This document shows positions 16,440-21,151 of a stretch of DNA of 49,974 nucleotides, piece after piece. The position numbers and the translations under genes are program-made. This stretch comes from Candidatus Latescibacterota bacterium (GTDB lineage: Bacteria; JAAXHH01). A model generated the notes under the pieces. That model worked only from the letters and a program-made list of their open reading frames with translations. It did not search any database and was not told where the DNA came from. Location: contig JAJECR010000159.1 in the NCBI GenBank assembly GCA_022821935.1, positions 1-49,974 of the forward strand. The letters run 5' to 3'. Position 1 is the stretch's first letter, and each line of letters starts with the position of its first letter.

Positions 16440-16973
16440 ATGAGTTGCGACCACGGTGAACACGAAGGATGGCTTCGGCTGGCGCTTGAAGAAGCCAGGT
16501 CGGCCGAGGCCGCTGGCGATGTGCCTGTAGGGGCCGTGATCGTACACGACGGCGTGGTCATCGGACGGGGTCAGAATCGCGTGGAGCGTTTACGCGACCC
16601 TACGGCCCATGCTGAAATGCTCGCGATCCGCGAGGCCTGCGCCGCGCTGGGGTATGAACGGCTGGATGGCGCCACGCTCTACGTTACGCTGGAACCCTGT
16701 GCCATGTGCGCGGGAGCGATCGTGCTGGCCCGCTTGCATAGCCTGGTGTACGGTGCGGCCGATCCCAAGACCGGGGCCTGTGGTTCCCTTCGCGATATCG
16801 TGCGGGACAACCGGCTGAATCACCAGGTGGAGGTAACTGGAGGTGTTCTGTCGGAATCCTGCTCCGAACTGCTGAAGGATTTCTTCCGGGAGAAACGGAG
16901 CGCGAGCGGACCAGGCGGAGCGAGCAGCCCGGCTGTCGAACCGAGGTTACCGGAGAGGTGCGAGAGTGGTTGA
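16440..16973 (+). CDS. tadA: tRNA adenosine(34) deaminase
   Basis: CDA-fold zinc motifs HAEMLAIREA and LEPCAMCAGAI. The ATG lies 21 nt after the tRNA-Arg. The C-terminal ~7 codons run into the next tRNA gene. Confidence 0.9.
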   Translation: MSCDHGEHEGWLRLALEEARSAEAAGDVPVGAVIVHDGVVIGRGQNRVERLRDPTAHAEMLAIREACAALGYERLDGATLYVTLEPCAMCAGAIVLARLHSLVYGAADPKTGACGSLRDIVRDNRLNHQVEVTGGVLSESCSELLKDFFREKRSASGPGGASSPAVEPRLPERCESG

Positions 16974-17036
16974 ATCGGACGGTCTCGAAAACCGTTGTGC
17001 CTCCGGGCACCGTGGGTTCGAATCCCACCCTCTCCG
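16952..17036 (+). tRNA. tRNA-Ser (anticodon CGA), class II with long variable arm
   Basis: Acceptor GGAGAGG/CCTCTCC, anticodon stem ACGGT/ACCGT with loop CTCGAAA, long variable arm, T arm GTGGG-TTCGAAT-CCCAC. Confidence 0.9.
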
Positions 17037-17152
17037 TTTGTATATCCCATTGCGTTGACGTCCTTGTTGAACACCTGCGCTGACATTCACAGCTTACCCC
17101 TCTTTGCACATTCCTCGTTGTACCATTTTGATCTGCCACAATAAGCGACGGG

Positions 17153-20100
17153 CTAGATATTACAGGGTTCTGAAAGTTCTCTGACCGGCACGCCCCTCAA
17201 CCAAGTCTGGAATTCGGCATCGGCAGGTATGCAGATCGATGTTCCCAGGGTAAGTAGATGGGTGAGACTGAGCGAGGTTATTTGCCGCGGAAGCCTGCCA
17301 GACATATCCATGTTATGCCTTATGTCGAATTCTTTCAGGTTCGTCAGTCGGGCGATTTCCGTTGAGACGGATCCCGACAGACGGTTGATAGAAAGTCTCA
17401 GTCCCTCCAGTTTGTCGAGGCGCCAGATTTCCCTTGGAATGACTCCCGTCAGCAGACCCTCTGAAAGATCCAGAAGGGTAAGGTTCTTAAGTTGTCCAAT
17501 CTCCTCAGGTATATGCCCCGATAGTCGGTTGGTTCCCAGGATTAGCGTGGTTAGACTTGTAAGTTCCCCGATTTCGTCTGGGATGTCGCCCTCCAGATCG
17601 TTATCATCCAGCCTCAATATCTCCAGGTTAGATAGCTGTCCTATCTCTGGTGGAATCGTACCCGTCAATGCGTTTTCCTGAAGCAGCAAAGTAGTGAGGT
17701 TCCCGAGTTGTCCGATTTCCGGTGGTATGGTACCGGAGATGTCGTTGTACGCTAAATAAAGTGTCTCGAGATGCTGGAGTTTACCGATCTCGGCGGGAAT
17801 ACTCTCGGAAATACTGTTCCTCTCGAGGTATAGTCGCTTCAATTTGGAGAGTTCTTCGATCTCAGGTGGAATCTCTCCTGTCAGGTCGTTGGCAAACATG
17901 TTTATTTCAGCCACTCTGTCCTCTTCGTCAACCACAATACCATACCAGGTTTCTATCGGACTCTGACTCAACCAGTTGTTCTTGTCCTTCCATCCGGGTC
18001 CGTTCGTAGCATTGAAAAACGCGGTGAGCGCATCCAGGTCGGGATGTGGGTTAATGACGCCACAGGTCTCGTAACTGACGTGTTCGACCGTACTGAGCCA
18101 GTCTTGAAACTCGTCGTCTTCGGAGAAGCAGAACTGGGTGCCGGTCAGTAGAAGCGTATCCAGATCGAGACGCGTGATCTCTGGAGGCAGTGGCCCGCCA
18201 ATATTTGGATTGTCGGAGAGATCAAGATGTGTAAGGAATCTTAAAAGGTATATTTCCGAAGGCAACCTTCCCTGCAAGTTGTTCTCAGCGAGTTGCAGGC
18301 CGGTTACGCGTCCGTCTTCATTCGTGGTCACACCGTGCCAGGTGCCTACGTATTCGTTACTTCCCCAGCCGTCGTTGTCGGTCCAGTTGCGACCTCGGGT
18401 ACGATTATACAGTGCATCCAGTGCGATTCGATCGAACCTGAGATCATCGCAGTTGGTGATGCGTCTATCCGGAATCCCCTCCAGCCATGCTTCAATATCG
18501 CTTGCGTTTTGCGCACATATCTGCGTGCCGTATAATATCAAATGCTCCAGATTGTGAAGTTTTGTGTATTCGTGTGGAAGATAACCGGTTAGACCGATAT
18601 TGTTCTGAAGTTGCAGATTAACGAGGTTCCCCAACTCGCCCATTGTGGGAGGAAGAGGTCCCGTCAGAAGATTGCCGGAAAGATCCAGAATCTCCAGTTC
18701 AGTCAACTTCCCCAACTCATAAGGTATGTCCCCCGAAATCATGTTATCTGGAAGTGAGATTGATCGCACTTGCCCATTCGTATTGGTCTCGACTCCGAAC
18801 CATTCGCCGATTGGCCGGTCTGTGAGCCAGTTCTGCCGTTCTGTCCAGTTTCCTCCTCCCATCTCATTGTACATAACGGCCAGGACATCGCGGTCCGAAC
18901 CTGTAAACTCACACGAGGCAATGCGATCTGAAGATTGGATTTCCAACAACCAGTCATAGAACTCGGCATCTAGGGGTGCGCACAGCGCTGTGTTTTGCGC
19001 ATACAGCCTGACCTGACCGATGTTGAGAAACTCTCTGGGCAGTGGTCCGGAAAGGTCGGGGTTGTCATTGAGGAAGAGTGCTTCCAGTCGATGTAGCTGT
19101 CCCATCTCTGGAGGAAGGGGTCCCGACAGTTGATTATGGGACAGCACCAGAGTTGTAAGGTGTGTAAGCTGTCCCAGTTCCGCGGGTATTGACCCAGTCA
19201 ACTGGTTACCGTTTAAAAACACCTCCACGACATTTGCGAGTTGCCCCGTTTCCGGTGGTATAGATCCTGTCAGTCTGTTTTCGTGGAGAAACAGCGCCTC
19301 TAACTGGCTCAGTTGCCCAATCTCCCGCGGTATGCTACCTGTCAACTGAGAATTGTTCAGTACGAGCTGTTCGAGTTTCGCCAGGCGACCTAACTCAGGT
19401 GGAATGGAACCTTCTAGTTCATTATCTGACAAGTCCAGTTTCTCGAGATGGGACAACTGCCCGAATTCACCGGGAATCCGACCTTTTAGGTTGTTCGAAC
19501 GAAGCCATAATTCCCTGACATTGCCCTGGCTATCCACAGTAACGTTTGCCCACTCACTCACTGGTTTCTCGCTCAGCCAGTTAGAAGATCTGTTCCAGTT
19601 TGCTCCATCAGTCTGGTTGTAAAGTAAGACCAGGATCTCCCTGTCAGGACTTCGTACCGAAACTGTAACCGGAACTTCGATTCTAAGCCCTCTGTGTCTC
19701 GCAACGATTACTGTGCTGCCGTTACCAACTGCGGTTACCAACCCCTGGTTGTTGACGGTTGCGATATCCGTTTCGTAGCTCAACCACGTCACGCTGGCCT
19801 GCGGTATCGGATTCTCATTCGAATCCTGTATGATTGCTGTTAGTTGAACCGTCTCTCCGACAGCCGATAACATGACAATCGAAGGCTCGACGACAAACTT
19901 GTCTAATTCTTGTGACACCCGAACCTCGACACTTGCCGTCACACTCCCTGATCTCGCCGTGATATTCACAGTTCCGACACCGACTGCAGTTACCAGGCCC
20001 TGAGCGTTGACCGTCGCTACACCTGAGTTGCTGCTCGACCAAGCCACCTGAGCGTCGTTTATCGTCCTGTTGTTTTGAGCCAAGACCTGGGCTGTAAGTT

Positions 20101-20314
20101 GAACCGTCAGACCCAGTGCCTTCAATGTGAATACAGACATGGATGGCGAAATCCGGACTGTGGAAGGTACTAGTGAAGGTGGCGGTGGTGGAGTCGGAGT
20201 TGTTGGTGGAGGAGTCGGCGCCGGGGGAGCGGGCGTCGTGGTGCTGTCTTTACCACAGGTTGCGCAAGCCAGTATCACTCCCATGAACAATACCTGGTAT
20301 ATAAAGCGGGACAT
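17153..20314 (-). CDS. large lipoprotein: Pro/Thr linker, two Big_2 Ig-like domains, four capped cassettes of plant-type leucine-rich repeats
   Basis: Signal plus lipobox (VILAC), then PAPPAPTPPPTTPTPPPPP. Big_2 signature W.SSN..VATV...GLVTAV appears twice. Many 24-residue repeats of the form LxxLxxLxLxxNxLxGxIPxE(I/L)GxL. The gene is visibly lower in GC than its flanks. Confidence 0.85.
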   Translation of the reverse strand: MSRFIYQVLFMGVILACATCGKDSTTTPAPPAPTPPPTTPTPPPPPSLVPSTVRISPSMSVFTLKALGLTVQLTAQVLAQNNRTINDAQVAWSSSNSGVATVNAQGLVTAVGVGTVNITARSGSVTASVEVRVSQELDKFVVEPSIVMLSAVGETVQLTAIIQDSNENPIPQASVTWLSYETDIATVNNQGLVTAVGNGSTVIVARHRGLRIEVPVTVSVRSPDREILVLLYNQTDGANWNRSSNWLSEKPVSEWANVTVDSQGNVRELWLRSNNLKGRIPGEFGQLSHLEKLDLSDNELEGSIPPELGRLAKLEQLVLNNSQLTGSIPREIGQLSQLEALFLHENRLTGSIPPETGQLANVVEVFLNGNQLTGSIPAELGQLTHLTTLVLSHNQLSGPLPPEMGQLHRLEALFLNDNPDLSGPLPREFLNIGQVRLYAQNTALCAPLDAEFYDWLLEIQSSDRIASCEFTGSDRDVLAVMYNEMGGGNWTERQNWLTDRPIGEWFGVETNTNGQVRSISLPDNMISGDIPYELGKLTELEILDLSGNLLTGPLPPTMGELGNLVNLQLQNNIGLTGYLPHEYTKLHNLEHLILYGTQICAQNASDIEAWLEGIPDRRITNCDDLRFDRIALDALYNRTRGRNWTDNDGWGSNEYVGTWHGVTTNEDGRVTGLQLAENNLQGRLPSEIYLLRFLTHLDLSDNPNIGGPLPPEITRLDLDTLLLTGTQFCFSEDDEFQDWLSTVEHVSYETCGVINPHPDLDALTAFFNATNGPGWKDKNNWLSQSPIETWYGIVVDEEDRVAEINMFANDLTGEIPPEIEELSKLKRLYLERNSISESIPAEIGKLQHLETLYLAYNDISGTIPPEIGQLGNLTTLLLQENALTGTIPPEIGQLSNLEILRLDDNDLEGDIPDEIGELTSLTTLILGTNRLSGHIPEEIGQLKNLTLLDLSEGLLTGVIPREIWRLDKLEGLRLSINRLSGSVSTEIARLTNLKEFDIRHNMDMSGRLPRQITSLSLTHLLTLGTSICIPADAEFQTWLRGVPVRELSEPCNI

Positions 20315-20460
20315 CTGATTTCTTCCTTATGGGTGGTGGCCGCCTGTGGATACCGAAGGTTAAGATCTAATTACTTTTCGATCTGGCCTTTCGAAATATC
20401 TACCGTTCAGTTTTGATGTCTAAAACATCTTAATGAATTCAACCTAATGAATTTGATCAT

Positions 20461-20817
20461 ATGTCAGAATGCGAAAATTCAATTGTAATTACACAGATGT
20501 TTAAAACAACATCGAATCTCATTGACCGGATCGTGCGAAGGCTACTAGTGCCCTTGCGGCCCCGAACCTATAGCAATGATGACGAGCGGTTGTCCCGACT
20601 GTGTGTGGCACGTCATTGGGTTCCCGAATGTTTTGAACGGTGTCTGGCCGCACTCATCGTTGAGATAATCGTTGAGATATTAGAAATTGGCTCTTTCATG
20701 AAATGGCAACCCACAACAACTGAATTTGATTTTGTTCAGAAACCTGAGACTTACGTGCGTTGCCGGACCGTTAGAAGGCGAAGTGTATTCATTCGATTCC
20801 TGCCAATGGGGCCATAA
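20461..20817 (+). CDS. hypothetical ORF in the AT-rich spacer (may be non-coding)
   Basis: An ORF only, with no recognisable motif. It contains a 12-nt tandem duplication (IVEIIVEIL). Confidence 0.15.
   Translation: MSECENSIVITQMFKTTSNLIDRIVRRLLVPLRPRTYSNDDERLSRLCVARHWVPECFERCLAALIVEIIVEILEIGSFMKWQPTTTEFDFVQKPETYVRCRTVRRRSVFIRFLPMGP
20657..20680. repeat. 12-nt tandem duplication (tcgttgagataa / tcgttgagatat)
   Basis: Read directly; 11 of 12 positions are identical. Confidence 0.8.
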
Positions 20818-21065
20818 AGGTGAATTTACTGTTGTTTCTACTCGTCATTTTCGTTAAATTTGCCTATCTGATTCCACGTTTGGGCAAAGCGATTTGCTTT
20901 GGGTGGAAATCCGCGTAGTAGATGGATTTACAGCTCGGTTCCCGCTCAGGGATTCGGCGTTCGTTTAGTGACTGAGGTTCAAACAGTTCATTTGGAACAT
21001 CTAGAGAATTCGTAATCCGGGCAAGGCGGGAATCCGGTCTGGACTACAGAGGGCAGAAACACCTG

Positions 21066-21151
21066 GGAGAGGTGCGAGAGCGGTTGAATCGGCACGCCTG
21101 GAGAGCGTGTGTTCACCATGTGGACCGTGGGTTCGAATCCCACCCTCTCCG
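21066..21151 (+). tRNA. tRNA-Ser (anticodon GGA), class II
   Basis: Its acceptor, D-arm region and T arm are nearly identical to tRNA-Ser(CGA) at 16952. Anticodon stem CACGC/GCGTG with loop CTGGAGA. Confidence 0.9.

What the first reader, a model, noticed from the sequence alone, without database searches (positions are those of the whole stretch)
17153..20314. 1053-aa lipoprotein built from two Big_2 domains and four self-contained plant-type LRR cassettes with conserved N- and C-caps
After a lipobox and a Pro/Thr linker come two Big_2 Ig-like domains. Four repeated cassettes follow.

Each cassette opens with a cap of the form D(R/L)xxLxx(L/M/F)YNxTxGxNWxxxxNWL(S/T)xxPxxxWxGVxxxxxGxVxxLxLxxNxLxGxIP. 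This resembles the N-terminal cap of plant LRR receptor ectodomains, but without its cysteines.

Each cassette then continues with a variable run of roughly 2 to 10 repeats of 24 residues, LxxLxxLxLxxNxLxGxIPxExGxL. That is the plant-specific LRR class.

Each cassette closes with a two-Cys cap, T(A/Q/S)(L/I/F)Cx(P)xDxEFxxWLxx(I/V)xxxxxxxC: ALCAPLDAEFYDWLLEIQSSDRIASC, QICAQNASDIEAWLEGIPDRRITNC, QFCFSEDDEFQDWLSTVEHVSYETC and SICIPADAEFQTWLRGVPVRELSEPC.

I do not recognise this concatenated cap-LRR-cap module architecture on a bacterial surface lipoprotein as a described family. It suggests a multivalent surface binding or adhesion protein.
Basis: partly seen in the sequence, partly recalled or inferred. 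Interest (0 to 1): 0.62.

Follow-up and report, generated by a model that had tools for sequence, protein, structure and literature searches.

The report
Lipoprotein carrying four capped plant-type LRR modules
A sponge-associated bacterium encodes a membrane-anchored protein that strings four separately capped, plant-receptor-like leucine-rich-repeat binding modules on an Ig-like stalk; this module type is abundant in public metagenomes but no domain database or paper that I could search describes it.

Summary
The ORF at 17153-20314 (-) encodes 1053 aa: signal peptide with lipobox, Pro/Thr linker, two Big_2 domains and four cap-LRR-cap cassettes (aa 223-468, 473-622, 627-751, 758-1051).

AlphaFold2 models the smallest cassette at pLDDT 95. 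Its best structural matches are plant SERK/BAK1 ectodomains. The N-cap aligns with the plant N-cap but has no cysteines. The C-cap is a helix carrying an invariant Trp, bracketed by two invariant Cys. It matches no Pfam model and no PDB sequence.

The protein is not a one-off. A profile of the C-cap/N-cap junction finds 1,180 protein clusters (50% identity) at E<=1e-30. All 28 species of this genus carry such junctions; five genomes of neighbouring genera carry none. About half of the 126 relatives examined add a C-terminal M66-like zinc protease. This protein does not.

The source is a sponge metagenome. The gene lies in a low-GC, variable-cargo site between two tRNA-Ser genes.

Most likely it is an envelope-anchored, multivalent binding protein, one of the "eukaryote-like" LRR proteins of sponge symbionts. 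Its ligand, its surface exposure and the disulfides are inferred, not shown.

I rate it a new variant of a known kind, of moderate interest.

The parts
17153..20314 (-). Whole ORF, 1053 aa plus stop codon (P0001)
   Evidence: Orthologs of 58-77% identity sit at the same site in five other species of the genus.
20322..20328 (-). Shine-Dalgarno-like AAGGAAG, 7 nt before the ATG
   Evidence: Read from the sequence. Supports ATG 20314 as the start, rather than the internal Met148 used for the 906-aa record P0002.
20395..20422 (-). Promoter-like TAGACA-16-GATATT
   Evidence: A consensus match only: 1 was found against 4.0 expected from shuffles, so this is weak.
20255..20314 (-). Signal peptide with lipobox (aa 1-20). 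The conserved Cys is C20, in ...ATC|GKDS
   Evidence: 62 of 126 relatives share L-[ATV]-[TS]-C-G-K-D-S-P-T-[KR]-P after a hydrophobic stretch. The genome encodes Lgt and LspA.
20168..20254 (-). Pro/Thr-rich linker (aa 21-49)
   Evidence: Read from the sequence. pLDDT is below 50 for residues 1-27, 29-31 and 33-43 in the full-length model.
19913..20167 (-). Big_2 Ig-like domain 1 (aa 50-134)
   Evidence: Pfam Big_2, best stretch aa 65-131. All-beta in the AF2 model.
19658..19906 (-). Big_2 Ig-like domain 2 (aa 137-219)
   Evidence: Pfam Big_2 reports 2 stretches, and Big_1 gives a weak hit at aa 154-191. All-beta in the AF2 model.
18911..19648 (-). Cassette 1 (aa 223-468): N-cap, 7 LRRs, C-cap with Cys445/Cys468
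   Evidence: Its concave-face positions are the most variable among orthologs (0.34 against 0.52 mean pairwise identity).
18449..18898 (-). Cassette 2 (aa 473-622): N-cap, 3 LRRs, C-cap with Cys600/Cys622
18062..18436 (-). Cassette 3 (aa 627-751): the minimal form, with N-cap, 2 LRRs and C-cap with Cys729/Cys751
   Evidence: AF2 with a 48-sequence alignment gives pLDDT 95.0 and pTM 0.88. Foldseek best matches are SERK1/2 and BAK1, TM 0.77-0.79.
17162..18043 (-). Cassette 4 (aa 758-1051): N-cap, 9 LRRs, C-cap with Cys1028/Cys1051
   Evidence: phmmer aligns aa 757-962 with FLS2 residues 4-211, N-cap included.
16951..17037 (+). tRNA-Ser(CGA), left border of the variable-cargo site
   Evidence: In 14 of 27 congeners it lies about 65 bp from the next tRNA-Ser.
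21066..21151 (+). tRNA-Ser(GGA), right border of the variable-cargo site

Best explanation
The gene encodes an exported, lipid-anchored envelope protein of a sponge-associated bacterium. NCBI labels its close relatives Gemmatimonadetes.

Proposed sequence of events:
1. Sec export.
2. Lgt/LspA processing at the lipobox Cys.
3. A flexible Pro/Thr linker and two Big_2 Ig-like domains hold four independently folded LRR solenoids away from the membrane.

Each solenoid is a miniature plant-receptor-type ectodomain. It has an N-terminal helical cap rich in Trp and without Cys. It has 2 to 9 repeats of the 24-residue plant-specific class. It ends in a C-terminal cap in which an amphipathic helix with an invariant Trp covers the end of the hydrophobic core. 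That cap is probably stapled by one disulfide between the two invariant Cys.

The four cassettes are old paralogs (about 30% identical to each other) that keep their positions in orthologs. They therefore most likely bind different ligands, or different sites on one ligand, giving multivalent binding.

The most likely role is attachment to, or capture of, extracellular host (sponge matrix or cell-surface) or other environmental macromolecules. In about half of the relatives examined the same targeting array is fused to an M66-like zinc protease; this protein is the binding-only form.

What is shown: the reading frame, the domain order, the cassette anatomy and its conservation, the confident fold, the family size and distribution, and the sponge origin.

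What is inferred: lipidation, disulfide formation, surface exposure, and the nature of the ligand.
For: - Anatomy and conservation.
- Fold: the minimal cassette has pLDDT 95 and pTM 0.88. Its nearest solved structures are the SERK1/2/BAK1, PGIP and LRR-RK ectodomains.
- Discrete modules: the full-length model has pLDDT 82 but pTM 0.41. It is unconfident only at aa 1-43, at the cassette 1/2 linker (469-471) and at one N-cap loop.
- Export and lipidation: the lipobox motif is conserved across the family. Lgt, LspA and two DsbA-family genes are present in the genome.
- Disulfide: in the orthologs the four Cys pairs are the only Cys outside the signal-peptide/lipobox region.
- Binding surface: the concave-face LRR positions vary more among 12 orthologs than the other non-scaffold positions (0.45 against 0.54, one-sided p=0.007). 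This is what a ligand-contact surface would show.
- Family context: 67 of 126 relatives carry HExGH. P0017 and the own-genome paralog on contig C153 score above the Pfam Peptidase_M66 cut-off.
- Habitat: a sponge metagenome run holds 97% of the gene's sampled words.
- Literature: LRR repeat proteins are enriched in sponge MAGs, and how they are exported was left open (PMC8163846).
Against: - There is no experimental or expression evidence. No RNA run holds the gene.
- Surface exposure of lipoproteins is not the default in diderm bacteria and is unstudied in this lineage. The protein could face the periplasm.
- I could not measure the Cys-Cys distance, because model coordinates are not exposed.
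- The lipobox is atypical: Thr at -1 for C20, and Cys at -3.
- The concave-face variability signal is modest and comes mostly from cassette 1.
- Only about 6 of 28 species of the genus keep this ortholog, and one copy is broken. It is therefore dispensable.
Confidence: 0.6

Rival explanations
1. Host mimicry or decoy. The cassettes imitate host LRR receptor ectodomains. They soak up host ligands or mask bacterial surface patterns, so that the symbiont escapes recognition or phagocytosis by sponge cells. They would not simply act as a glue.
For: - Eukaryote-like repeat proteins of sponge symbionts have been shown to interfere with phagocytosis; this was shown for ankyrin-repeat proteins (cited in PMC8163846 and PMC3909097).
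- The fold is that of eukaryotic receptor ectodomains.
- The concave face varies between species.
Against: - The similarity is to plant-type LRRs, not to known animal receptor LRRs.
- No host partner is known.
- The fusion of the same array to a protease in paralogs fits substrate targeting better than mimicry.
Confidence: 0.15
2. Partner or derivative of the protease paralogs. The protein is a protease-less version of the Big_2-LRR-M66 lipoproteins. It either recruits substrates for them, competes with them for the same substrates, or is simply on its way to being lost.
For: - The own genome holds M66-bearing paralogs on contigs C153 and C91.
- This ortholog is present in only about 6 of 28 species.
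- One copy, in G024, is fragmented.
Against: - The protein ends cleanly two residues after the last C-cap Cys in all 12 orthologs, with no protease remnant.
- Orthologs are 58-77% identical over their full length with all caps intact, which indicates purifying selection on a complete binding-only design.
Confidence: 0.12
3. A periplasm-facing lipoprotein with an envelope-internal role, for example binding peptidoglycan-associated or secreted partners. It would not be exposed on the cell surface.
For: - In most studied diderm bacteria lipoproteins face the periplasm.
- The conserved K-D after the Cys matches the Bacteroidetes surface-export signal K-(D/E)2 (PMC5080379) only in part.
Against: - A long Pro/Thr spacer plus an Ig-like stalk and about 830 residues of LRR modules is the typical build of outward-reaching proteins.
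- Relatives carry M66-like or trypsin-like protease domains, and faint SLH and LysM matches, which point outward.
Confidence: 0.1
4. Assembly or binning artefact: a eukaryotic (sponge, algal or plant) gene wrongly placed in a bacterial genome bin.
For: - Best PDB sequence matches are plant receptor kinases (E 4e-141).
- GC is 51%, against 64% for the flanks.
Against: - The same gene sits between the same bacterial tRNA, tadA and dnaX genes in a 983-kb scaffold and in several single-contig genomes.
- It has a bacterial signal peptide with lipobox, an SD sequence, Big_2 domains and no introns.
Confidence: 0.01

Closest known systems
Plant LRR receptor-kinase / co-receptor ectodomains (SERK1/2, BAK1, FLS2, PGIP)
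   Same: - The same 24-residue plant-specific LRR consensus.
- The same N-cap helix followed by W-x-G-V.
- The minimal cassette superposes on SERK ectodomains with TM 0.77-0.79.
- FLS2 aligns from its residue 4 onwards.
   Different: - No Cys pair in the N-cap.
- The Pfam LRRNT_2 model does not match.
- The C-cap is different: a Trp helix between two Cys 22-23 residues apart. From my own knowledge, the plant cap has a short Cys-Cys loop.
- No transmembrane helix and no kinase.
- Four solenoids in tandem, on a bacterial lipoprotein.
Eukaryote-like LRR proteins of sponge symbionts (described at Pfam-domain level: PMC8163846, PMC3909097)
   Same: It comes from a sponge metagenome, it consists largely of LRRs, and it carries an export signal. 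It belongs to this recognised class.
   Different: Those studies count Pfam LRR hits. I found no description of the capped cassette, the tandem arrangement, the lipobox-Big_2 stalk or the M66 fusion in the searchable literature.
Animal Slit (four tandem LRR domains, each with its own N- and C-cap) and animal LRRCT caps
   Same: Architectural analogy. There are several short solenoids in a row, each with its own caps. In the C-cap, a Cys is followed by a helix with W-L about 10 residues later and by a further Cys about 22 residues after the first. This comparison rests on my own knowledge, not on a tool result.
   Different: - No sequence relationship is detectable: no Pfam hit at E<=10 and no PDB sequence hit with the C-cap profile.
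- One disulfide instead of two.
- The repeats are of the plant class, not the typical animal class.
Leptospira LRR lipoproteins (LIC10831, LIC11098, LIC12759; LIC_11051 family)
   Same: Bacterial LRR proteins of host-associated bacteria. PDB chains 4u08, 4u06 and 4u09 match at E 1e-45 to 1e-68.
   Different: - The match lies in the repeats only.
- The NCBIfam LIC_11051 model scores 111 bits against a cut-off of 1000.
- The comparison did not show capped cassettes in these proteins.
Xanthomonas type III effectors XopAE, XopAC and XopL
   Same: They are the best NCBIfam hits, through plant-like LRRs.
   Different: - Scores of 168, 154 and 81 bits against cut-offs of 600, 450 and 500.
- Those are injected cytoplasmic effectors. 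This protein has a Sec/lipoprotein signal and probable disulfides, so it is extracytoplasmic.
StcE-type Peptidase_M66 proteins
   Same: About half of the relatives examined, and a paralog in this genome, end in an HExGH domain that passes the Pfam M66 threshold.
   Different: - This protein has no such domain.
- Even in the paralogs, only the active-site segment of the M66 profile is matched (positions 193-243 of 306 in C153; 166-251 in P0017).

Membership tests
Plant-specific (PS) LRR class | 24-residue repeat LxxLxxLxLxxNxLxGxIPxxLxx | tested here: met
   The 17 full repeats that were put in register give this consensus. Cassette lengths in 121 relatives step by 24 residues.
Plant LRRNT_2 N-cap (PF08263) | Match to the Pfam model | tested here: not met
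   No hit for the whole protein at E<=0.01, for the four isolated N-caps at E<=10, or for 52 junction sequences.
Plant LRRNT_2 N-cap (PF08263) | Conserved Cys pair around W-x-G-V | tested here: not met
   There is no Cys in any of the four N-caps. In the FLS2 alignment the plant Cys positions face a gap or Thr, and Val.
Plant LRRNT_2 N-cap (PF08263) | Helix plus short strand capping the first repeat (fold likeness) | tested here: met
   AF2 places a helix at residues 2-14 and a strand at 38-40 before the first LRR. The model superposes on SERK ectodomains.
Plant LRR receptor kinase / receptor-like protein | Transmembrane helix, with or without a kinase, after the ectodomain | tested here: not met
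   The protein ends two residues after the last C-cap Cys.
Bacterial lipoprotein | Signal peptide ending in a lipobox Cys | tested here: met
   VILAC17ATC20GKDS. The family-wide motif is L-[ATV]-[TS]-C-G-K-D-S in 62 of 126 relatives.
Bacterial lipoprotein | Lgt and signal peptidase II present in the genome | tested here: met
   PF01790 scores 189 bits and PF01252 scores 144 bits in the own genome.
Bacterial lipoprotein | Actual acylation and SPase II cleavage | not testable with these tools
   Needs palmitate labelling or a globomycin test.
Big_2 (PF02368) | Score above the Pfam gathering threshold | tested here: met
   68.5 bits against 22.8, in two stretches.
Disulfide-stapled C-cap (proposed here) | Two Cys 21-24 residues apart, with an invariant Trp 10 residues after the first | tested here: met
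   All four caps have it. So do 795 of 797 caps in the family.
Disulfide-stapled C-cap (proposed here) | The two Cys within bonding distance and oxidised | not testable with these tools
   Model coordinates are not exposed. Two DsbA-family genes are present.
Animal LRRCT (PF01463) | Match to the Pfam model | tested here: not met
   No hit at E<=10 for the four isolated C-caps or for 52 junction sequences.
Peptidase_M66 fusion proteins of the same family | C-terminal HExxH domain | tested here: not met
   Absent from P0001. Present in the paralog C153 and in 67 of 126 relatives.
XopAE / XopAC / XopL (NCBIfam) | Curated whole-protein cut-off | tested here: not met
   168 against 600, 154 against 450, and 81 against 500 bits.
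LIC_11051 fibronectin-binding family (NCBIfam) | Curated whole-protein cut-off | tested here: not met
   111 against 1000 bits.
Internalin-like (NF033190) | Curated whole-protein cut-off | tested here: not met
   36.9 against 1275 bits.
Sponge-symbiont eukaryote-like repeat proteins (LRR class) | Pfam LRR domains in a sponge-associated prokaryote | tested here: met
   LRR_1, LRR_4, LRR_8 and LRR_14 are all far above threshold. A sponge metagenome run holds 97% of the gene's sampled words.

The most novel reading that the evidence does not exclude
The capped 124-residue-plus-n-times-24 cassette is a self-folding, exchangeable binding unit. This lineage of sponge symbionts has multiplied it (up to about 50 cassette junctions per genome), resized it in whole-repeat steps and diversified it on its concave face. 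That would amount to a bacterial repertoire of variable LRR receptors. The receptors would be displayed through the lipoprotein pathway, possibly with the conserved C-G-K-D-S-P-T stretch acting as a surface-export signal outside the Bacteroidota. This would explain how sponge symbionts present eukaryote-like proteins to their host without dedicated secretion systems.
Probability: 0.15. Interest if true: 0.7.

Novelty: new variant of a known kind. Interest (0 to 1): 0.45.

Why it matters
LRR "eukaryote-like" proteins are counted in every genomic survey of sponge symbionts. Their anatomy, their export route and their targets have been left open. PMC8163846 notes that most symbionts lack the secretion systems expected to deliver them.

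This protein and its family offer a concrete, testable design:
- Sec/lipoprotein anchoring.
- An Ig-like stalk.
- A string of small, independently capped plant-type solenoids.
- In roughly half of the relatives examined, a zinc protease at the far end.

The C-cap and the Cys-free N-cap are conserved, confidently modelled domains with no Pfam model. Defining them would re-annotate thousands of "hypothetical" or "Ig-like domain-containing" proteins.

The 129-residue minimal cassette is a small, probably single-disulfide LRR scaffold. It should be easy to express, crystallise and use in ligand screens.

Tried and rejected
- Pfam on the isolated caps and on 52 junctions at E<=10: no LRRNT_2, no LRRCT, nothing meaningful.
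- C-cap profile against all PDB sequences: one spurious hit at E 0.92. The resemblance to animal LRRCT that I recalled from memory therefore stays a lead only.
- Region-restricted word search on the junction: only 12 hits, none named.
- Names for the top representative clusters: none on record.
- RNA-seq runs holding the gene: none.
- Eukaryotic contamination was considered and rejected on synteny.
- Membership in the Xop effector, LIC_11051 and internalin families was considered and rejected on curated cut-offs.
- PF26918, listed for many relatives, turned out to be an Ig-like model (Ig_Eae, a faint hit), not a cap model.
- My first register for the repeats of cassettes 2 and 3 was wrong. I corrected it.


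Full report
**Observation.**
The minus-strand ORF 17153-20314 is open for 1053 codons. An SD-like AAGGAAG lies 7 nt before the ATG at 20314. The product starts MSRFIYQVLFMGVILACATCGKDS and continues with a Pro/Thr-rich stretch.

Pfam finds two Big_2 stretches (E 5e-19) and very strong LRR_1, LRR_4, LRR_8 and LRR_14 matches. A motif scan places four N-cap cores at aa 231, 481, 635 and 766. Apart from C17 and C20 in the lipobox region, the only cysteines are the four pairs 445/468, 600/622, 729/751 and 1028/1051.

The cassettes span aa 223-468, 473-622, 627-751 and 758-1051. They hold 7, 3, 2 and 9 full repeats (24 residues; the last one before each cap has 25), plus one repeat that is part of the C-cap. 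The description is correct.

**Is it more than chance?**
I collected the 120 best relatives from a 5.8-billion-protein collection. More than 6,000 scored E<=1e-10 among the 8,000 candidates scored. I extracted 347 cassettes from them and from the query protein.
- Cassette lengths fall on a ladder of 24 residues: 124, 148, 172, 196 and so on. The 124-residue form is the commonest, with 107 copies.
- The two cap Cys are 22-23 residues apart.
- The next N-cap core begins 11-15 residues after the second Cys.
- In 48 non-redundant minimal cassettes, G17, W20, W26, G37, N54, N78, G83, C105, W115 and C127 are invariant.
- Across 261 family proteins, 795 of 797 C-caps have the second Cys.

This is a real, strongly constrained module.

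**Structure.**
AlphaFold2 was run on cassette 3 with that alignment. It gives mean pLDDT 95.0 and pTM 0.88. The model has an N-terminal helix (residues 2-14), three LRR strands, and a C-cap made of a strand ending in the first Cys, a helix (110-117) carrying the invariant Trp, and a short strand before the second Cys.

Foldseek against the PDB ranks plant SERK1/SERK2/BAK1 co-receptor ectodomains first (TM 0.77-0.79). PGIP, other receptor-kinase ectodomains and the plant two-solenoid protein 4hq1 also appear in the list. At sequence level the best PDB matches are FLS2 (4e-141), GSO1 and MIK2. The FLS2 alignment begins at its residue 4, so it includes the N-cap. The plant cap cysteines are replaced there.

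The full-length model has pLDDT 82 but pTM only 0.41. Confidence is low at aa 1-43, at 469-471 (the cassette 1/2 linker) and in one N-cap loop. Well-folded beads with an undefined mutual arrangement are what discrete capped solenoids would give.

I could not measure the Cys-Cys distance because coordinates are not exposed. The disulfide is therefore inferred from three things: invariance, the absence of other Cys outside the signal-peptide/lipobox region in the orthologs, and the presence of two DsbA-family genes.

**Known families.**
- No Pfam model matches either cap. This was tested on the whole protein, on the eight isolated caps, and on 52 C-cap/N-cap junctions at E<=10.
- A C-cap profile finds nothing in the PDB sequences.
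- NCBIfam hits (XopAE, XopAC, XopL, LIC_11051, internalin-like) are repeat-driven and far below their curated cut-offs.
- The literature I could search treats LRR proteins of sponge symbionts only as counts of Pfam domains (PMC3909097; PMC8163846). I found no description of this cassette.
- From my own knowledge, the closest architectural analogue is animal Slit, with four tandem LRR domains that are each capped. The C-cap spacing recalls animal LRRCT. The HMM searches do not support a relationship, so I treat this as analogy.

**The family.**
Of 126 relatives, 62 share a striking N-terminus: a hydrophobic stretch followed by L-[ATV]-[TS]-C-G-K-D-S-P-T-[KR]-P. This makes C20 the likely lipidated residue here. 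The genome encodes Lgt and LspA.

A typical long relative reads: lipobox, Pro-rich spacer, 2 to 10 or more Big_2 domains, 3-6 cassettes, then a roughly 480-residue domain with HExGH. That motif is present in 67 of 126. The domain passes the Pfam Peptidase_M66 threshold in P0017 (31.8 bits) and in the own-genome paralog on contig C153 (24.8 bits), although only around the active-site helix.

Other members carry Trypsin_2 plus SH3_3, Big_12, or faint SLH and LysM matches instead. A second C-cap type, G-C-I-P...L-G-L-P-F-C, also occurs. The protein studied here and about a dozen orthologs are binding-only forms that end right after the fourth cap.

**Distribution.**
A profile of the junction (C-cap plus following N-cap, 83 positions) was searched against 1.84 billion cluster representatives. 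It finds 18,494 clusters at E<=1e-3, 6,248 at E<=1e-10 and 1,180 at E<=1e-30. Most of the best 150 are matched over the whole profile, with up to 20 matched stretches in one protein.

The GTDB-based genome set places this genome in a phylum-level group of only 33 species. In that group, all 28 species of the same genus have junctions (2-53 per genome), and the five genomes of other genera have none.

Among named genomes, full junctions also occur in 'Gemmatimonadetes bacterium COS4_bin_2' and in a MAG labelled Dehalococcoidia. Chloroflexota, Cyclobacteriaceae, Thermodesulfobacteriota, Syntrophales, Halothiobacillaceae and Flavobacteriales genomes match only the N-cap half. So the N-cap is widespread in bacteria, and the complete cassette is much narrower.

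NCBI labels a 72%-identical ortholog 'Gemmatimonadetes bacterium'. A sponge metagenome run holds 97% of the gene's sampled words.

**Genomic setting.**
The gene has 51% GC and GC3 of 0.55. The flanks have 64% GC, and the genome median GC3 is 0.72. Paralogs elsewhere in the genome are closer to the genome norm, with GC3 of 0.65-0.76.

The gene lies between tRNA-Ser(CGA) and tRNA-Ser(GGA). I mapped both flanks in the 27 other species of the genus. For 26 of them both flanks lie on one contig:
- In 14 species the two tRNAs are only 57-65 bp apart.
- In five species (G021, G010, G026, G019, G012) the site holds an ortholog of this gene of 58-77% identity.
- In G024 the site holds a copy broken into pieces around inserted ORFs.
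- In six species it holds unrelated cargo of 1.2-10.4 kb, one piece of it at 45% GC.

An ortholog of 64% identity in a 983-kb scaffold shows the same synteny and the same low GC. The gene is therefore accessory cargo of a tRNA-flanked hot spot. It has been kept for a long time in part of the genus without taking on the host's base composition.

**Function.**
Nothing here tests function directly. The build argues for an outward-reaching, multivalent binding protein: an export and lipid anchor, a flexible spacer, an Ig-like stalk, and four independent solenoids with probable disulfides.

The cassettes are only about 30% identical to each other in the cap/junction regions. Each is 60-80% conserved in its own position across orthologs. 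That speaks for distinct specificities.

Among 12 orthologs, the concave-face positions 3, 5, 7 and 8 are more variable than the other non-scaffold positions (0.45 against 0.54 mean pairwise identity, one-sided Mann-Whitney p=0.007). The effect is strongest in cassette 1 (0.34 against 0.52). This is a modest hint that the concave face meets a changing partner.

The protease fusions in paralogs suggest that the arrays target extracellular macromolecules. In a sponge these would plausibly be matrix or cell-surface glycoproteins. I commit to envelope-anchored multivalent ligand capture or adhesion at confidence 0.6. Host mimicry, a partnership with the protease paralogs, and a periplasmic role are the rivals.

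The conserved K-D after the lipobox Cys resembles in part the Bacteroidetes surface-lipoprotein export signal K-(D/E)2 (PMC5080379). That is speculation.

**Verdict.**
The finding is real and accurately described. It is not a singular oddity. It is a clean representative of a large, uncharacterised family that belongs to the known class of sponge-symbiont eukaryote-like LRR proteins.

What is new is at the domain and architecture level:
- a Cys-free plant-like N-cap;
- an unmodelled single-disulfide helical C-cap;
- tandem self-contained cassettes resized in whole-repeat steps;
- display through a conserved lipoprotein leader.

I class it as a new variant of a known kind, with interest 0.45.

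Noticed in passing
window 17038-21065 (between tRNA-Ser 16951-17037 and tRNA-Ser 21066-21151): The spacer between the two tRNA-Ser genes is a variable-cargo hot spot in the genus. It is empty (57-65 bp) in 14 of 27 congeners. Five congeners hold an ortholog of this LRR gene there, and G024 holds a broken copy. Six others (G016, G014, G004, G022, G009, G028) hold unrelated inserts of 1.2-10.4 kb; in G006 the two flanks lie on different contigs.
   Followed up: yes
L022 (G024:C1:1223700-1229000): A degraded copy of the gene. LRR and cap pieces are split over ORFs of 352, 405, 202 and 152 aa. ORFs of 311 and 421 aa with higher GC (0.59-0.60) are inserted between them. They may be a mobile element; I did not identify them.
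   Followed up: partly
window 17153-20314; L001 7001-11000: The low GC (51-57% against about 65%) and low GC3 (0.55 against a genome median of 0.72) are shared by an ortholog of only 64% protein identity. The foreign composition has therefore persisted over long divergence. Paralogs elsewhere in the genome are closer to the genome norm (GC3 0.65-0.76). Unexplained.
   Followed up: partly
window 20234-20257 (aa 20-27) and the N-termini of 62 relatives: The stretch right after the lipobox Cys is almost invariant across the family: C-G-K-D-S-P-T-[KR]-P. It partly resembles the Bacteroidetes lipoprotein export signal K-(D/E)2 (PMC5080379) and could be a sorting signal.
   Followed up: partly
own genome contigs C153:2302-6471(+), C91:1-2766(-), C102:7423-10146(+), C367: These are paralogs. 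C153 (1390 aa) has a lipobox, Big_2 domains, 3 cassettes and an HELGH domain that passes the Pfam Peptidase_M66 threshold (24.8 bits). C91 is cut by the contig end and also has HExGH. The count of about 5 genes is a lower bound in this 400-contig assembly, since complete genomes of the genus have up to 53 junctions.
   Followed up: yes
proteins P0011, P0015, P0025 (relatives): A second, different two-Cys C-cap closes some plant-type LRR runs...L-T-G-C-I-P-x-x-L-x-x-V-x-x-N-D-x-x-x-L-G-L-P-F-C. P0025 combines it with Trypsin_2 and SH3_3 domains.
   Followed up: no
G041 (record of L010, 'Dehalococcoidia bacterium jk18x22bins.99'), contig C86: A 1300-aa open frame with five full C-cap/N-cap junctions (E down to 1e-30) lies in a MAG labelled as a different phylum. 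This is either inter-phylum transfer or mis-binning.
   Followed up: no
whole genome G000: The GTDB-based set places this genome in a phylum-level group of only 33 species, all in a single order and 28 of them in one genus. NCBI records label close relatives Gemmatimonadetes. I did not resolve the taxonomic placement.
   Followed up: no
protein P0002 (906 aa, 100% identical over 86% of the query): In another assembly the same gene was called from the internal Met148, which drops the signal peptide and the first Big_2 domain. Several orthologs are likewise annotated without a leader (P0003, P0009, P0012, P0014). Database records therefore under-report the lipoprotein nature of this family.
   Followed up: partly
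window 20315-21065: A 750-bp AT-richer spacer lies upstream of the gene. It holds a 118-aa plus-strand ORF (20461-20817), which is probably spurious, and the palindromic motifs that another first-stage note flagged. Only one weak promoter-like site was found.
   Followed up: no
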